In this document: piece after piece, positions 24,386 to 28,432 of the stretch
Layout of the letters: every line of letters begins with the position of its first letter
How positions within the stretch are numbered: the first letter of the stretch is position 1
Origin: Vicinamibacteria bacterium
GTDB taxonomy: Bacteria; Acidobacteriota; Vicinamibacteria; Marinacidobacterales; Marinacidobacteraceae
Reading direction: 5' to 3'
Assembly: GCA_964291235.2 (NCBI GenBank)
Contig: OZ219816.1
Coordinates: forward strand, 2,016,001 to 2,080,000
Length of the DNA: 64,000 bases
The notes under the pieces: generated by a model
Told to the model about the DNA's origin: nothing
What the model saw: the letters and a program-made list of their open reading frames with translations, nothing else
Databases searched by the model: none
Position numbers and translations under genes: made by a program

Positions 24386-24868
24386 ATGACCCATCGCCAG
24401 ATCCCGCTTCTGTTCGCTCTGACGTTACCCCTGGCCTGCGCCACCGAAACCGCCCCCCAGCAGGAGACTCCCGAGGAGGCTGCCGGGCTGGAGCGGCACT
24501 ACATCAACCCCCGCTCGGCGGCGGATCCCGATGTACCGCCCTTCAGCGGCGGCGTGATGGTGGGCGACACCTTCTACGTCGCGGGAACCATCGGGCTGCT
24601 CCCCGATCAGACGGTGCCCGAGACCGCCCAGGAAGAGGCTCGCCTCGTCATGACCAGTGTGCAAAACACCCTGGAGGCGGCCGGACTGACCATGGACGAC
24701 CTGGTATTCGTGCAGGTCTATTCGTCGGACGTCGCGGACTACGACGCCTTCAACGAGGTGTACCGCACGTTCTTCACCCAGGAATACCCGGCCCGCGCCT
24801 ACCTGGGCTCGGGCACGCTGCTCTTCGGGGCGCGGTTCGAGGTGCTGGGGTTCGCGGCGAAGCGCTAG
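24386..24868 (+). CDS. RidA/YjgF family protein with lipoprotein signal
   Basis: PFS, FNEVY, PARA (catalytic Arg), FEV; N-terminal PLAC lipobox; GGAGG RBS. Confidence 0.88.
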   Translation: MTHRQIPLLFALTLPLACATETAPQQETPEEAAGLERHYINPRSAADPDVPPFSGGVMVGDTFYVAGTIGLLPDQTVPETAQEEARLVMTSVQNTLEAAGLTMDDLVFVQVYSSDVADYDAFNEVYRTFFTQEYPARAYLGSGTLLFGARFEVLGFAAKR

Positions 24869-24884
24869 TTCGGATTTCTCATAC
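24869..24884 (+). repeat. Dispersed motif CGGRTTTCTCATAC (left copy of an inverted pair)
   Basis: TTCGGATTTCTCATAC; inverted copies GTATGAGAAACCCGG at 26782 and 50894. Confidence 0.6.
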
Positions 24885-24972
24885 TTCCGCCGTAGAGATC
24901 GATGCAGGATGGTGCTCCTCTTCGGCGGGAACCCAACTAGCCTTGATGTCGGACAGGCACGGGAGCCCCCTA

Positions 24973-24978
24973 TAGGAT
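24973..24978 (+). promoter_or_regulatory. -10 box (TAGGAT) of the IS110 circle-junction promoter
   Basis: Joining right end to left end at the CC core gives TTGCGT-17 nt-TAGGAT. Confidence 0.7.
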
Positions 24979-24984
24979 CGGCGA

Positions 24985-25180
24985 CGTCCTGCGGGAGCCG
25001 AGATTCGGCTGCCGTTGTATCAACTCAGGTTGGCCAATCCGCCGGGAGTACTAACTGAGCCCCGGTGCCGCGAGCACCTACGGTGGACACGTACCCCGAC
25101 GGATGGCCGTGATGGACGACCAGTGGAGAGTCGGTTCCAATCGAGAACCAGTATAGGGGCTGGACAGCATCGCGGCGCGG
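24985..25180 (+). ncRNA. Predicted IS110 bridge RNA (target-binding loop about 25037-25104, donor-binding loop 25106-25176); exact ends uncertain
   Basis: Two stem / internal loop / hairpin modules carrying GAGCCCC, GGTGG, GTGGAGAGTC and TATAGG, each matching the reconstructed target or donor junction. Confidence 0.82.
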
Positions 25181-25219
25181 CGGACCTCCGGCGGAGCGCA
25201 AGCTCGAAGGAAGACAGCG

Positions 25220-26482
25220 ATGAAGCAGAAGCTGAGCTGGTTCGTGGGCATCGACTGGGGCGAGCAGAGCCACCAGGTGTGCCTGTGCGACAGGCGCGGG
25301 AAGGTGCGCGGGGAGCGCGCCTTCGCGCACAAGGGATCGGGGCTGGCGGCCCTGGTGAAGTGGCTTAGGAAGCAGACGGGTGTGCCGCCGGCGCGGGTGG
25401 CGGTCGCGATCGAGCGGCCGGATGGGGCGGTGGTGGCGACGCTGCTGGAGGCGGGGTTTGCGGTCTATGCGGTGAACCCGCGGCAGACGAGCCACCTGCG
25501 GAAGTTCATCTCCCACCCGGGGCACAAGAACGACCGGCGGGACGCCCGGATGTTGGCCACCACGCTGCAGGCGAGCCTGGCGGGGTTCCGCCTGCTGGTG
25601 CCGCTACCGGGGTTGGTGCTGCGGCTGCGGGAGCGGACCCGGACGGCGGACCGTCTGCTCCAGGAGCAGGTCCGGCAGTGCCTGCGGATCCGGAGTGCGC
25701 TGGTGGACTACTTCCCGCAACTGCTGGAGGTGGCCGGCGAGGCGAAGAACCTGGGGGCTCCGTTCTTCCGGGAGTTGTGGGCTCGGGCTTCTACGCCGGC
25801 GAAAGCGCGGAAGGTGTGGTTGTCCACGTTGGAGAAGCTGGTCCGGCGGTATGGAGTGACCCGGATCAGCGCCGCGCGGATCCAGGCGTTGTTCCGGGAG
25901 CCGGCGCTGGTGATGGCGCCGGGGGCGACCGAGGCGGCGGTGGAGACGATCCGCACGGCGCTCGCACAGTTGGAGGTTGTGCGGGCGGAACTCGTCCGGG
26001 CGGAGGGCCAGATGACCCAACTGCTGGACGAGTTCTCGGAGACGGCGGAGGCCGGGGGTGGTTCGGATGCCACGGGCCCGGATCTGGTGAGCGCGTTGCG
26101 CTCGCGCCCGGGCGCGGGGGACAAGGCGCTGGCCCGGTTGTTCGCCTGGGGCTTCGAGGCGCTCTCGGAGGGGAACTACCGCCGTCTGCGCGCCTACTGT
26201 GGGGTAGCCCCGATCGAGGACCAGTCCGGCAAGTCCGCACAGCTCCGGCAACGGCGCGCCGTTCCCAGTTCGCTGCAACACGCCACCTACATCCTGGCGC
26301 GGGGGGTCGTCCGCTGGGACGAGAAGGTGGCGGCCTACAACCGGAAGTTGAAGGCGGAAGGGAAGCACACGGCCCGGCGCCACCGGAGCATCGCGGATCA
26401 ACAACTCCGGGTGCTGTGCGCGATGGCCCGGAACCGAACCCTCTTTGATCCCAACTTCTCCCAGAAGCGGAGGGCCGCCTAA
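25220..26482 (+). CDS. IS110-family transposase/recombinase
   Basis: RuvC-like DEDD: FVGIDWG, AIE, KNDRRDA; C-terminal PGAG and GVAPIEDQSG catalytic Ser; GAAGGAAG RBS. Confidence 0.96.
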   Translation: MKQKLSWFVGIDWGEQSHQVCLCDRRGKVRGERAFAHKGSGLAALVKWLRKQTGVPPARVAVAIERPDGAVVATLLEAGFAVYAVNPRQTSHLRKFISHPGHKNDRRDARMLATTLQASLAGFRLLVPLPGLVLRLRERTRTADRLLQEQVRQCLRIRSALVDYFPQLLEVAGEAKNLGAPFFRELWARASTPAKARKVWLSTLEKLVRRYGVTRISAARIQALFREPALVMAPGATEAAVETIRTALAQLEVVRAELVRAEGQMTQLLDEFSETAEAGGGSDATGPDLVSALRSRPGAGDKALARLFAWGFEALSEGNYRRLRAYCGVAPIEDQSGKSAQLRQRRAVPSSLQHATYILARGVVRWDEKVAAYNRKLKAEGKHTARRHRSIADQQLRVLCAMARNRTLFDPNFSQKRRAA

Positions 26483-26487
26483 CGCTC

Positions 26488-26493
26488 TTGCGT
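26488..26493 (+). promoter_or_regulatory. Outward-facing -35 box (TTGCGT) in the IS110 right end
   Basis: 5 nt after the transposase stop; spaced 17 nt from TAGGAT in the predicted circle. Confidence 0.65.
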
Positions 26494-26522
26494 TCTCGTG
26501 GAAAGTCCACCAGGAGAACTGG

Positions 26523-26688
26523 GCCGGCCTCCAGGCCGGCACAGCCCGCCGTAGGCGGGCGGCGGGACGGACCTGGCTGGCCGGGATGGCTCCCTCTTTC
26601 GGAGGGACCCCGTGAGCGCGAGTGGCGAGGAACCGCCCGCGGCGCTCCGCGCCGCTGTGCCGACCTGGAGGTCGGCGTTCCCGTGCCT
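26523..26688. repeat. Inverted pair of REP-like palindromes (REPIN/BIME-like)
   Basis: GCCGGCCTCCAGGCCGGCACAGC (26523-26545) and GCTGTGCCGACCTGGAGGTCGGCGTTCCCGTGCCT (26654-26688). Confidence 0.7.
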
Positions 26689-26857
26689 ACCCGCTGTCCG
26701 TGCGGTCGGGGTCAGCGCCTGACGCGTTCTCCCGACATTGTCAACAGGTTGGCGTGATCCGCGCGGCACGTGGGGCCATGAGTATGAGAAACCCGGGCTA
26801 AGACACCCGGGGGCTCGCACCGCCCGGCGGGACCAGCCGGGGAGCCCTTCCCCGCGC

Positions 26858-28432
26858 CTATCCCTCCTCCCAAAGACGCGGATAGAAGGGCTGGAATTTG
26901 AATTGGGAGTCGGGGTCGGCCAGTCCGCCGCCGGAGGCGCGGCGGACGAACTCCGCCGGTTCCAGAGTCGCGGAGCGCACCGCGCCGAGACGGCGGCTCG
27001 CGCGCTTCGCCCGGTACTCCAGATTCTGCCCGGCAAGCAGCTCGTCGAGTCGTTCCGCCAGCCCCGGCGGAAGCGCACCCGACCCGTTTTCCCGCCGAAC
27101 CACGGCGAGTTGGTAGCAGGGAAGCTCCGCTCCGCCTGGATCCCGCGGGAAGATCGCCAGCCAGAATTCCTCGCGCAAGCCGGGATGCTCGGTGTCCAGA
27201 ACCTCGAGAGCACATCCGACCTGTTCGGCGGTGATCTTTTCGCCCGTGAAAGACCAGCCAAGGCCGCGTCGGCCGACAAAGCGCAGATCCGGCAGGCCGG
27301 CGATGAATCTCTCGACCCGAAAGAGATCCCCCGTTGCGTAGCGCCGGAGGCCGAACCGGTGACTCACCACCATCTCGTACGTCGTATCCGGGTTCAGATC
27401 GCGGGCGCCCGACAGGGAAGCCAGCGGTCCCGCCGCGGACGACTCCCGGAACTCGTGAAGGACTCCGGGGGCGGCTGGCAGAAACGCCGTATCCCCCCGG
27501 CGGTAGTCCGGAATGGTCTCGATCGTTTCGGTGGACATCGAAAACATCGGCTCCCGCCGATAGCGCGGCAGGGGAAGACGCCGGTCCAGCCGTTCGAGAA
27601 ACGGCCGCACACTGCCTCCCGTCCAGCACACGTAGGTCGTGAAAGCCGGATTCCAGAGCGCCGCCGGGAGCGGCGACGAGCTTTCCGACACCCGCCGCAG
27701 GCGGGCTGCCGAGCCCCGCGAAGCGAGCCTCCCGAGAATCCGCCGGGCGAACGGAGATACCCCTTTCCCGTCGCGCACGACGTCCCGGACGAGCCTCCGG
27801 GCTGCCTTCCAGTCCGCCTCCAATTCCTCAAGAAAACCGCTCAGCGTGGACGGGTTCGTGGCGTAGAGGATCCCGGGATTCGAGAGCGTGAGCACCAGCA
27901 AGCGCAGCGCGGTGGCCCCGTACCGGTCCTTCAGATCGAGGAAAGCCGGATCCGACTGAGCGCGGTAGGGAGCCTGGAGCAACACGAACCAGGGCGGTGC
28001 GCGGCGCTCGCGGACGAGCAGCCAGCTCAGCGAGCGATCCGGCTCAAGCGCCCCGAAGACGTAAAGGCTGGGACGCCGGATCCGGCGCTCCGCAATGAGG
28101 CGGAGCATCCCGTCCACGAATACGGCGCGGGTCGCTCGCACCCGCTCCGGCGAATACGGGATGCGTTTCGGCTCACCCGCGGTGCCGGAGGTGAGTGCTA
28201 CCGGGGTCCCGCTGCGGTCATCCACCGCCGGCAGCGCAGGAGTGACCGGGGTGGCGGAAGTGATTCCCAGGCGCCTCGGCAGACGTCGTTCGCGATACGG
28301 ATGGAGCCGCAGCCGCGCCCGGTGGCGCAAAACGGCGGCGAGGCCCGCCAGGTGCAGGAGGGCGCCAATGGCCGAGCGACCGAGGTCATTCAGGAAACCT
28401 CGGAAATCGCGCCTCAATGAGGGCGCACCCAA
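26858..28432 (-). CDS. GH3-family acyl-adenylating enzyme (acyl acid-amido synthetase-like)
   Basis: LTSGTAGEPKRIP (motif I), FSMSTE (II), GLRRYATGD (III), FTGEK, NLEYRAKR. Confidence 0.82.
   Translation of the reverse strand: MGAPSLRRDFRGFLNDLGRSAIGALLHLAGLAAVLRHRARLRLHPYRERRLPRRLGITSATPVTPALPAVDDRSGTPVALTSGTAGEPKRIPYSPERVRATRAVFVDGMLRLIAERRIRRPSLYVFGALEPDRSLSWLLVRERRAPPWFVLLQAPYRAQSDPAFLDLKDRYGATALRLLVLTLSNPGILYATNPSTLSGFLEELEADWKAARRLVRDVVRDGKGVSPFARRILGRLASRGSAARLRRVSESSSPLPAALWNPAFTTYVCWTGGSVRPFLERLDRRLPLPRYRREPMFSMSTETIETIPDYRRGDTAFLPAAPGVLHEFRESSAAGPLASLSGARDLNPDTTYEMVVSHRFGLRRYATGDLFRVERFIAGLPDLRFVGRRGLGWSFTGEKITAEQVGCALEVLDTEHPGLREEFWLAIFPRDPGGAELPCYQLAVVRRENGSGALPPGLAERLDELLAGQNLEYRAKRASRRLGAVRSATLEPAEFVRRASGGGLADPDSQFKFQPFYPRLWEEG

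What the first reader, a model, noticed from the sequence alone, without database searches (positions are those of the whole stretch)
24985..25180. IS110 bridge RNA whose four guides can be read directly from its own junctions
Seen: removing the element at a CC core (24969-70 / 26507-08) gives target GGGAGCCC[CC]ACCAGG and donor circle GTGGAAAGT[CC]TATAGG. Loop 1 is closed by GGG(A)GTAC/GTACCCC. It holds GAGCCCC (25057-63, equals left target plus first core C), the hairpin GGTGC/GCACC, then GGTGG (25082-86, reverse complement of CCACC). Loop 2 is closed by GCCGTGATG/CATCGCGGC. It holds GTGGAGAGTC (25123-32, 9/10 match to the left donor, the mismatch being a G:T wobble), the hairpin GGTTC/GAACC, then TATAGG (25152-57, reverse complement of CCTATA). 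Established: this is the target-loop/donor-loop architecture of IS621-type bridge RNAs. Inference: this is a complete RNA-guided recombinase with a CC core rather than IS621's CT and a 420-aa protein with DEDD and Ser intact, so a candidate new programmable ortholog.
Basis: partly seen in the sequence, partly recalled or inferred. Interest (0 to 1): 0.88.

Follow-up and report, generated by a model that had tools for sequence, protein, structure and literature searches.

The report
IS110 element with bridge RNA
This is a small jumping gene of the IS110 family whose own non-coding RNA carries the address of both its landing site and its own ends; it is a clean new example of a system first described in 2024, not a new kind of thing.

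Summary
Window 24971-26506 is a 1536-bp IS110-group insertion sequence. The genome holds 5 copies (two variants, 99-100% identical), all inserted at the same place in a repeated intergenic sequence. Unoccupied copies of that repeat have exactly two C fewer, which fixes the ends and the CC core. The 420-aa protein has both IS110 Pfam domains and conserved D12/E65/D105/D108 and S336-G337. Its predicted fold matches IS621 and ISCro4 bridge recombinases first.

The 249-nt left end folds into two internal loops. Their stems covary across 31 related RNAs (23 of 31 pairs with compensatory changes). The four guides match the element's own junctions. Ordered four-guide score: 33, against 21.1 +/- 2.3 in shuffles (0 of 5000 reach it). 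In related elements with other targets or ends, the guides change with them. A TTGnnn-17-TAnnnT promoter forms only across the joined ends, in 9 of 9 elements.

Not shown: RNA expression, a circular intermediate, recombination activity or programmability. Verdict: a real, probably recently active bridge-RNA element. It is a new member of a known kind, about 19-20% identical to IS621, with a CC core. Interest is moderate.

The parts
24961..24968 (+). Left target (LT), part of a repeated intergenic (REP-like) sequence
   Evidence: Same 8 bases flank all 5 copies and are found in unoccupied sites
24969..24970 (+). Left copy of the CC core
   Evidence: Occupied sites carry 7 C in all (5 at the left junction plus 2 at the right). 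Unoccupied sites carry 5
24971..26506 (+). IS110-group insertion sequence, 1536 bp (one core copy not counted)
   Evidence: 5 copies in the genome align over 1-1536 at 100, 100, 99, 99 and 99%. Two variants, no internal stops
24971..25219 (+). Left non-coding end (LE), 249 nt, which encodes the bridge RNA
   Evidence: Read. Long LE and short RE is the IS110-group layout (PMC11208160)
24973..24978 (+). -10-like hexamer (TAnnnT) of the promoter that forms only in the circle
   Evidence: 17-bp spacing from the hexamer at 26488-26493 across RE + core + LE. The same arrangement is seen in 9 of 9 related elements
24991..25015 (+). 5' stem-loop (24991-25001 with 25005-25015)
   Evidence: Present in the single-sequence fold. 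The 3 copies of the second variant carry C24999>T together with G25007>A, which is a compensatory pair. An 8-sequence alignment gave no consensus fold
25038..25103 (+). Target-binding loop module: closing stem 25038-41/25100-03 and 25043-51/25091-98
   Evidence: Helix 1: 9 of 12 pairs have changes on both sides, 97% of cells paired
25057..25063 (+). Left target guide (LTG)
   Evidence: Identical to 24963-24969. Changes at two positions together with the flank in the G004 relatives
25064..25078 (+). Inner hairpin of the target loop
   Evidence: Helix 2: 2 of 5 pairs have changes on both sides. The outermost pair 25064:25078 is kept in only 9 of 30 sequences
25081..25086 (+). Right target guide (RTG): core plus four right-flank bases
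   Evidence: Reverse complement of 26507-26512 in the 4 other copies. In the window copy 26512 is A, so 5 of 6 match
25087..25088 (+). Handshake guide of the target loop (AC)
   Evidence: Reverse complement of the last two element bases, 26505-26506. It mismatches the target bases 24967-68, as the handshake model requires (model read in PMC11208158)
25106..25176 (+). Donor-binding loop module: closing stem 25106-14 with 25168-76
   Evidence: Helix 3: 9 of 9 pairs have changes on both sides, 93.5% of cells paired
25123..25132 (+). Left donor guide (LDG)
   Evidence: 9 of 10 identical to 26498-26507, with G25128 against A26503 (wobble). The same position is A/A in the G014 relative and G/G in the G004 relatives
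25133..25149 (+). Inner hairpin of the donor loop
   Evidence: Helix 4: 3 of 5 pairs have changes on both sides, 71% of cells paired. The outermost pair is kept in only 4 of 21 sequences
25152..25157 (+). Right donor guide (RDG): core plus the first four element bases
   Evidence: Reverse complement of 24969-24974
25158..25159 (+). Handshake guide of the donor loop (GG)
   Evidence: Reverse complement of the last two left-target bases, 24967-68. The whole of 25152-25159 is the exact reverse complement of 24967-24974
25220..26482 (+). Recombinase gene, 420 aa
   Evidence: PF01548 at 4e-28 and PF02371 at 1.4e-8. D12, E65, D105, D108 and G337 are invariant; S336 is invariant in 10 of 10 sequences and at least 90% conserved in 18. 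The fold matches IS621/ISCro4 first
26483..26506 (+). Right non-coding end (RE), 24 nt. Its last 9 bases are the left donor (LD)
   Evidence: Read. The same end sequence is found in the G014 relative
26488..26493 (+). -35-like hexamer (TTGnnn) of the circle-junction promoter
   Evidence: 9 of 9 elements. No sigma-70-like site is found in the linear sequence 24800-26700
26507..26508 (+). Right copy of the CC core
26509..26514 (+). Right target (RT), which continues into the repeated sequence
   Evidence: Shared by all 5 copies (A or G at 26512) and by the unoccupied sites

Best explanation
Window 24971-26506 is a complete, probably recently mobile insertion sequence of the IS110 group. It encodes a DEDD/Ser recombinase and, in its 249-nt left end, a bridge RNA.

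Inferred mechanism, by analogy with IS621:
1. The element excises as a circle. This joins the right end to the left end across one CC core and creates a promoter, with the -35 in the right end and the -10 in the left end.
2. That promoter transcribes the left end.
3. The RNA folds into a 5' stem-loop, a target-binding loop and a donor-binding loop.
4. In each loop the 5' strand pairs with the bottom strand left of the core, and the 3' strand pairs with the top strand at the core and right of it.
5. Two further bases in each 3' strand (handshake guides) can pair only after top-strand exchange.
6. Recombination at the CC core inserts the circle, in one orientation, into one position of a repeated intergenic sequence.

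Shown here: the ends, the core, the copy number, the free target sites, the protein family and its catalytic residues, the conserved RNA structure, and the guide-to-junction matches with their co-variation in relatives.

Inferred: transcription, RNA-protein binding, the circle, catalysis and programmability.
For: ENDS AND CORE
- 5 copies, each exactly 1536 bp, with the same flanks.
- The predicted empty site occurs 5 times exactly and 48 times at up to 2 mismatches, against 3 for the reversed control.
- Empty sites have 5 C where occupied sites have 5 + 2.
- 21 free exact 12-mers match both target guides, against 5 for the reversed control.

RECENT ACTIVITY
- There are two variants. Copies within a variant differ by 0-1 bases, and all reading frames are open.
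- These 5 are the only PF01548 genes in the genome.

PROTEIN
- Pfam PF01548 and PF02371.
- D12, E65, D105, D108 and S336-G337 are conserved.
- PDB sequence hits are only ISCro4 (1.9e-7) and IS621 (2.4e-6). The Ser-Gly aligns to theirs.
- The top 10 Foldseek hits are all IS621 or ISCro4: E = 2.4e-9, TM 0.66 on the target, 19-20% identity.

RNA STRUCTURE
- RNAalifold on 15 relatives: 14 of 29 pairs have compensatory changes.
- On 31 model-aligned sequences, 90.1% of cells are paired, against 76.2% in shuffles and 28-47% when partners are slid.
- 23 of 31 pairs change on both sides. Covariation score is 0.399 against 0.158; 0 of 500 shuffles reach it.
- A compensatory pair (24999/25007) separates the two variants inside this genome.

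GUIDES
- All four match their own junctions, and both handshake pairs match.
- The ordered score is 33, against 21.1 +/- 2.3; 0 of 5000 shuffles reach it.

CO-VARIATION WITH FLANKS, 11 elements
- The best target-loop score falls inside the element's own clade in 11 of 11 rows. It falls on its own site, or ties, in 8 of 11.
- Donor loops: 10 of 11.
- Relatives with other targets or ends carry correspondingly different guides.

PROMOTER
- TTGnnn-17-TAnnnT spans the joined ends in 9 of 9 elements.
- None is found in the linear sequence.
Against: - There is no evidence of expression. No listed sequencing run that holds the element is RNA.
- No contig shows the right end joined to the left end. Contigs drop rare forms, so this says little.
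- The single-sequence fold energy is not significant: z = -1.41.
- The left donor guide has one non-Watson-Crick position (25128). In exact-run terms it therefore matches the G004 relatives' end better than its own, 17 against 12.
- The window copy's right flank has A at 26512 where the guide expects G.
- Both 5'-side guides reach only the first core base by Watson-Crick pairing. [quoted passage not shown]
- The outermost pair of each inner hairpin is not conserved: 9 of 30 and 4 of 21.
- The relatives are kin. The 31-row alignment was fitted to the model's structure, so it leans towards that structure. It also contains one weak reverse-strand row and three truncated rows that I did not remove.
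- The 5' part of the left end gave no consensus fold across 8 sequences.
Confidence: 0.9

Rival explanations
1. The element is a real IS110 copy family but is now immobile. It would be a fixed relic whose RNA and protein are intact by recent descent only, or a domesticated element that serves the host repeat in some other way.
For: No circle junction appears in the laid contigs and no RNA holder is listed. All 5 copies sit in one subfamily of the repeat, although 11 of the 21 free perfect sites lie in another subfamily.
Against: Copies within each variant differ by 0-1 bases over 1536 bp, and all frames are open with catalytic residues intact. Copies sit at 5 different loci with different outer flanks. 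Relatives in sister genomes have different copy numbers and positions. A G014 relative with the same target guides does sit in the second repeat subfamily (L047).
Confidence: 0.07
2. The left end is only a leader or regulatory region of the transposase mRNA. On this reading its matches to the junctions are chance, or are leftovers of repeat sequence captured by the element, and they have no guiding role.
For: The genome is GC-rich and full of related repeats. Shuffled left ends already score 21 of the observed 33. The fold energy is unremarkable.
Against: 0 of 5000 shuffles and 0 of 988 natural controls reach the observed ordered score. The matches are split between sense and antisense on the two sides of each loop, exactly as in the known architecture. 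The guides change with the flanks in relatives, and the stems covary. The left end contains no long copy of the repeat; it has only 5-10-nt matches, placed in the loops.
Confidence: 0.02
3. The ends or the core are placed wrongly. The crossover might lie elsewhere in the C run, or the core might not be 2 bp, so the guide assignments would be shifted.
For: The left flank ends in a run of 5 C, which allows some slippage in how the left target guide is drawn. In a 43%-identical relative group, comparing occupied and free sites suggests only one duplicated base.
Against: The base before the right core copy (T26506) differs from the base before the left one (C24968), and the base after the left core copy (T24971) differs from the base after the right one (A26509). 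The shared segment is therefore exactly CC. Free sites have exactly two C fewer. The right-hand guides place their two G opposite these two C.
Confidence: 0.01

Closest known systems
IS621 of Escherichia coli (bridge recombinase with bridge RNA; Durrant et al. 2024, PMC11208160; Hiraizumi et al. 2024, PMC11208158)
   Same: - DEDD RuvC-like domain, coiled coil and Tnp domain with a catalytic Ser-Gly.
- Long left end that encodes an RNA with a 5' stem-loop, a target loop and a donor loop.
- The 5' strand of each loop reads like the left side and the 3' strand is complementary to the core and the right side.
- 2-nt handshake guides.
- 2-bp core.
- Promoter formed across the circle junction.
- Insertion into repeated extragenic sequences.

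The model features were read and tested here.
   Different: - Only 19-20% identical over the structural alignment.
- 420 aa rather than 326. The extra length lies between the two Pfam domains, where the model predicts long helices at 131-164 and 237-273.
- Core is CC, not CT.
- The 5'-side guides cover only the first core base.
- The left target guide is 7 nt, against the 8-9 nt stated for IS621-type RNAs.
ISCro4 / IS622 of Citrobacter rodentium (Perry et al. preprint 10.1101/2025.05.14.653916; PDB 9t56)
   Same: It is the best PDB sequence hit (E = 1.9e-7) and ranks among the top 10 fold hits. It has the same two-loop RNA logic with handshake guides (passages read).
   Different: It is a close relative of IS621 with a CT core and is 18% identical to this protein. 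[quoted passage not shown]
ISEc21 and the seekRNA of IS110-type elements (Siddiquee et al. 2024, PMC11187229)
   Same: The non-coding region lies upstream of the transposase gene. The RNA matches both strands of the target. A circular form with abutted ends creates a promoter. Natural re-programming among relatives is reported (passages read).
   Different: This is a different element and host. I did not compare sequences with ISEc21.
ISPpu9 / ISPpu10 of Pseudomonas putida (PMC12288879; preprint 10.64898/2026.03.19.712850)
   Same: They are IS110-family elements present in several copies, all inserted into repetitive extragenic sequences. I saw only the starts of the abstracts in the search listing.
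   Different: No sequence comparison was made. The ISPpu10 preprint proposes a structural layer of target choice. Here the only hint of that is that 5 of 5 copies sit in one repeat subfamily.

Membership tests
IS110 family, IS110 group (bridge recombinase elements) | N-terminal RuvC-like DEDD domain | tested here: met
   PF01548 at 4e-28 over residues 9-166. D12, E65, D105 and D108 are invariant in 18 of 18 aligned relatives. They correspond to IS621 D11/E60/D102/D105 as named in PMC11208158
IS110 family, IS110 group (bridge recombinase elements) | C-terminal Tnp domain with a catalytic serine followed by glycine | tested here: met
   PF02371 at 1.4e-8 over residues 292-373. S336 is invariant in 10 of 10 sequences and at least 90% conserved in 18. 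G337 is invariant. The Ser-Gly aligns to the Ser-Gly of ISCro4
IS110 family, IS110 group (bridge recombinase elements) | Overall fold like the solved bridge recombinases | tested here: met
   AlphaFold2 model with mean pLDDT 72.1. Foldseek ranks 1-10 are all IS621 or ISCro4: E = 2.4e-9, TM 0.66 normalised by the target. The serine loop is modelled at low confidence
IS110 family, IS110 group (bridge recombinase elements) | Site-specific insertion at a short core shared by donor and target, in one orientation | tested here: met
   5 of 5 copies are at the same position and in the same orientation in the repeat. Free sites have two C fewer
IS110 family, IS110 group (bridge recombinase elements) | Long left end and short right end | tested here: met
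   Left end 249 nt, right end 24 nt. The criterion is from PMC11208160 section 12
Bridge RNA (IS621 type) | Two internal loops, each closed by a stem and capped by a hairpin, conserved in relatives | tested here: met
   23 of 31 pairs have changes on both sides and 0 of 500 shuffles reach the observed scores. Caveat: the alignment was fitted to the model
Bridge RNA (IS621 type) | The 5' strand of each loop pairs with the bottom strand left of the core; the 3' strand pairs with the top strand at the core and to its right | tested here: met
   Runs of 7, 6 (5 in the window copy), 10 (with one wobble) and 6 nt, in the expected strands and order
Bridge RNA (IS621 type) | [quoted passage not shown] | tested here: inconclusive
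   Both 3'-side guides cover both core bases. Both 5'-side guides cover only the first one; the next RNA base is G opposite a bottom-strand G. Some relatives cover both
Bridge RNA (IS621 type) | Handshake guides that mismatch before top-strand exchange and pair after it | tested here: met
   25087-88 pairs with donor bases 26505-06 but not with target bases 24967-68. 25158-59 pairs with target bases 24967-68; against the donor bases it gives one wobble and one mismatch (model read)
Bridge RNA (IS621 type) | Guides co-vary with target and donor across orthologues | tested here: met
   11 elements in 4 clades. The best target-loop score lies within the element's own clade in 11 of 11 rows, and the best donor-loop score in 10 of 11. 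The sample is small and related. A further test on elements not used for the model was stopped (see Tried and rejected)
Bridge RNA (IS621 type) | [quoted passage not shown] | tested here: met
   The motif is present in 9 of 9 elements. Its function was not tested
Bridge RNA (IS621 type) | The RNA is expressed, is bound by the recombinase and is required for recombination; the loops are reprogrammable | not testable with these tools
   No RNA run is listed. This needs bench work
Bridge RNA (IS621 type) | Circular double-stranded intermediate | tested here: inconclusive
   No joint from 26506 back to 24971 appears among the contigs of 4 runs. Contigs drop rare forms
Any curated Rfam family | Match to a covariance model of Rfam 15 | tested here: not met
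   0 matches at E <= 1 in 24500-27000, both strands. So no Rfam 15 family matches this RNA

The most novel reading that the evidence does not exclude
This lineage would be an active, programmable bridge recombinase with a natural CC core and a somewhat different core rule, in which the 5'-side guides reach only the first core base. It would be orthogonal to the enterobacterial IS621/IS622 pair. It comes with a ready-made natural set of re-targeted relatives: at least four guide sets in one genus, two of which land 6 bp apart on the same repeat. That set could be used to learn its programming rules.
Probability: 0.35. Interest if true: 0.55.

Novelty: new member of a known kind. Interest (0 to 1): 0.38.

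Why it matters
Bridge recombinases are being developed as programmable tools for inserting, excising and inverting DNA. The characterised ones (IS621, IS622/ISCro4) are close relatives with a CT core.

This element is a distant orthologue at 19-20% identity. All of its parts can be read directly from the genome: the ends, the core, four guides, two handshake guides and the junction promoter. Sister elements show natural re-targeting. That makes it a well-documented candidate for testing whether a CC core and a high-GC RNA scaffold work, and how far the guide rules generalise.

For the biology of the host, it explains five 1.5-kb insertions in one family of intergenic repeats. It does not open a new question.

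Tried and rejected
- Rfam 15 gave no match in 24500-27000.
- The single-sequence fold is not significantly stable. I rest the structure on covariation instead.
- The search for related loci with the 18-sequence alignment failed for lack of a conserved stretch. A 10-sequence alignment worked. It brought only 13 loci from genome contigs, the same relatives already found, and 1 distant locus from metagenome contigs, which I did not use.
- Sequencing runs: 7 holders in 4 studies, and no RNA holder is listed.
- Laying the contigs of 4 runs showed no circle junction and no clean skip of 24971-26508. The listed joints have short sides or belong to other copies of the repeat. Long contigs stop near the element's ends (24966 and 26526), as expected for a multi-copy repeat. 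I draw nothing more from that.
- Excision footprints: 13 sites have 7 C before the right-flank motif. Their left context is different, so they are another repeat subfamily and not footprints.
- The 5' part of the left end gave no consensus structure across 8 sequences.
- No sigma-70-like promoter and no intrinsic terminator were found in the linear region.
- The right ends of the G018 and G009 relatives were not found within the fetched loci. They were therefore left out of the junction table, as were the G008 copies, whose left ends are not within the fetched flank.
- Literature: no paper in the held library contains 'bridge RNA', 'IS110' and 'Acidobacteria' together. I found no statement about natural CC cores in the passages I read.
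The orthologue tables of Durrant et al. may already list this element or its relatives.
Full report
OBSERVATION. I read window 24800-26700. Every string and coordinate in the finding is correct.
- The left junction is flank 24961-24968, CC at 24969-70, and the element from 24971.
- The right junction is the element up to 26506, CC at 26507-08, and flank from 26509.
- 25057-25063 equals 24963-24969.
- 25082-25086 is the reverse complement of 26507-26511.
- 25123-25132 equals 26498-26507 at 9 of 10 positions. The exception is G25128 against A26503.
- 25152-25157 is the reverse complement of 24969-24974.

ENDS, CORE AND COPIES. The genome holding the window has 3.45 Mb in 2 contigs. It carries 5 copies that align over the full 1536 bp at 100, 100, 99, 99 and 99%.
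- All five have the same bases on both sides.
- The sequence predicted for an empty site occurs 5 times exactly. At up to 2 mismatches it occurs 48 times, against 3 for a reversed control.
- These sites lie in a longer repeated intergenic sequence that also surrounds the occupied sites.
- Empty sites have a run of 5 C where occupied sites have 5 C on the left and 2 more on the right. The bases next to the two CC copies differ. The shared segment is therefore exactly CC.
- There are 21 free exact 12-mers that satisfy both target guides, against 5 for the reversed control.
- The five copies form two variants. Two copies are identical. Three share 17-18 differences from them, including 3 amino-acid changes, and have no stops. 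Within a variant, copies differ by 0-1 bases. This argues for recent movement.
- These are the only five PF01548 genes in the genome.
- The window copy lies between the 3' ends of a RidA/L-PSP-like gene (24386-24868, +) and a GH3-like gene (26858-28432, -).

PROTEIN. The 420-aa product of 25220-26482 has PF01548 (4e-28) and PF02371 (1.4e-8).
- D12, E65, D105, D108 and G337 are invariant in 18 aligned relatives. S336 is invariant in the 10 closest and at least 90% conserved in the 18.
- These correspond to the DEDD motif and the Ser-Gly loop described for IS621 (PMC11208158, passages read).
- The only solved structures found by sequence are ISCro4 (1.9e-7) and IS621 (2.4e-6).
- An AlphaFold2 model has mean pLDDT 72.1, with the serine loop poorly defined. 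It matches IS621 and ISCro4 chains at ranks 1-10: E = 2.4e-9, TM 0.66 on the target, 18-20% identity.
- Later ranks are Nop5/Nop56/58 proteins, a TIGR-Tas protein and RuvC.

RNA STRUCTURE. Rfam 15 has no matching family.
- Relatives of the protein occur in 10 of 61 related genomes at E <= 1e-20. The tool names two of these as Vicinamibacteria / Candidatus Marinacidobacterium MAGs.
- I aligned the RNA region of 15 elements whose proteins are 33-82% identical to this one.
- RNAalifold predicts the two closing stems and the target-loop hairpin. 14 of 29 pairs have compensatory changes.
- A covariance model built from this alignment with my structure finds hits in 24 of 151 genomes of the class. 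In the window's genome it finds only the five copies.
- On 31 model-aligned sequences, with no row removed:
  - 90.1% of cells pair, against 76.2% in shuffles and 28-47% with slid partners;
  - 23 of 31 pairs change on both sides;
  - the covariation score is 0.399 against 0.158;
  - 0 of 500 shuffles reach any measure.
- The alignment was fitted to the model and the sequences are kin, so these figures are generous.
- The outermost pair of each inner hairpin is not conserved (9 of 30; 4 of 21).
- In the 5' stem-loop (24991-25001 with 25005-25015), the second variant in this genome carries C24999>T together with G25007>A. That is a compensatory pair.

GUIDES. The layout follows the published model (PMC11208160, passages): the 5' strand of each loop pairs with the bottom strand left of the core, and the 3' strand pairs with the top strand.
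- Left target guide: 7 nt.
- Right target guide: 6 nt in four copies and 5 in the window copy, which has A at 26512.
- Left donor guide: 10 nt with one rG:dT wobble.
- Right donor guide: 6 nt.
  - 25087-88 is complementary to the last two element bases and not to the target bases.
  - 25158-59 is complementary to the last two target bases.
  - As a result, 25082-25088 is the exact reverse complement of the right junction 26505-26511, and 25152-25159 is the exact reverse complement of the left junction 24967-24974.
- The ordered four-guide score is 33. Shuffles give 21.1 +/- 2.3 (0 of 5000 reach 33). The 988 natural controls give a maximum of 30. A cruder exact-run score is reached by 28 of 20000 shuffles.
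- All guides are identical in the five copies.

CO-VARIATION WITH FLANKS. I located both junctions for 11 elements.
- The 82% relative (G014) has the same target. Its donor guide matches its end perfectly at the position where ours wobbles.
- The 64-65% relatives (G004) have two changed bases in the left target guide and the same two changes in the flank. Their donor end carries G where ours has A.
- The 43%, 37% and 33-36% relatives use other targets and carry matching guides.
- In a guides-by-sites matrix, the best target-loop score lies within the element's own clade in 11 of 11 rows, and on its own site or tied in 8 of 11. For the donor loop the figure is 10 of 11. The exception is our element, because of the wobble.

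PROMOTER AND EXPRESSION. Joining the right end, one core and the left end gives TTGnnn, a 17-bp spacer and TAnnnT in 9 of 9 elements. In our element these are 26488-26493 and 24973-24978.
- The linear region has no sigma-70-like site.
- This agrees with the junction promoter described for IS621 and for the family (PMC11187229).
- I found no RNA run and no circle junction in the contigs. Neither is evidence against the model.

COMPARISON AND VERDICT. The element meets every membership feature of the IS110 group and of IS621-type bridge RNAs that I could test, with one exception left inconclusive. The two 5'-side guides reach only the first core base, whereas in IS621 the core is included in all four pairings.

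It differs from IS621 and IS622 in five ways:
- sequence, at 19-20% identity;
- size, at 420 against 326 aa;
- core, CC against CT;
- length of the left target guide;
- host.

The kind has been known since 2024 and thousands of orthologues have been predicted, so this is a new member of a known kind. It is a well-documented candidate for bench testing rather than a surprise.

LIMITS.
- There is no wet evidence of any sort.
- The relatives are few and related.
- The supplementary tables that might already list this element are closed.

Noticed in passing
window 24869-24970 and 26507-26760; genome-wide: The target belongs to a large family of intergenic repeats. A 14-base right-flank motif occurs 92 times in the genome, in several subfamilies. 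The C run before it is 5 in 72 cases, 4 in 14 and 7 in 13. Metagenome contig depth over 26525-26680 is far above that of the flanks.
   Followed up: partly
genome G000, 5 occupied and 21 free sites: All 5 copies sit in one repeat subfamily, the one with a GC-rich hairpin about 20 bp to the right. About 7 of the 21 free perfect sites are in that subfamily and 11 are in a second one, by my reading's list. This could hint at an extra layer of site choice, or it could be chance. A G014 relative with the same target guides does occupy the second subfamily (L047).
   Followed up: partly
L063, L049 (43% relatives) and repeats in L040/L050/L057 flanks: In this group the occupied sites read as if the core were TC on both sides. 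The free repeats nearby have one base fewer than expected, so only one base looks duplicated. The RNA would place a G opposite the T. This could mean a core mismatch tolerated by wobble, or a repeat variant that I did not find.
   Followed up: partly
L040/L050/L057 flanks; L041, L042: The 43% and 37% relative groups insert into the same repeat at two positions whose cores are 6 bp apart. This is natural re-targeting onto neighbouring registers of one repeat.
   Followed up: partly
L037 (1724 bp), L038/L048/L056 (1862-1997 bp), L052/L060 (about 2600 bp), L043: Relatives are longer than the 1536-bp element. The G014 and G004 elements have 200-480 extra bases in the right end, with internal repeated modules. 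The G037 elements have about 1.2 kb between the left end and the RNA. The G018 element's right end lies more than 700 bp past the gene. A 2026 preprint on expanded IS110 elements may be relevant; I saw only its abstract start and one passage.
   Followed up: no
L072 / L081 (G014, 68% relative): This is a decayed copy. The reading frame has one TAG stop, and the left end upstream of the RNA does not start with the usual end sequence. The RNA region and the right junction are intact.
   Followed up: no
protein model of 25220-26482: After the bridge recombinases, the fold search lists Nop5/Nop56/58 box C/D RNP proteins (rank 12 onward) and a TIGR-Tas protein (rank 24). This is in line with a published proposal of a link between IS110 transposases and Nop5, of which I saw only the abstract start in the listing.
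   Followed up: no
window 25069, 25191 and 13 to 14 places in the gene: The second variant of the element is the one seen in the contigs of runs X1 and X2 at several of these places, for example 25069, 25191, 25591 and 26158. Both variants therefore circulate in the sampled populations.
   Followed up: no
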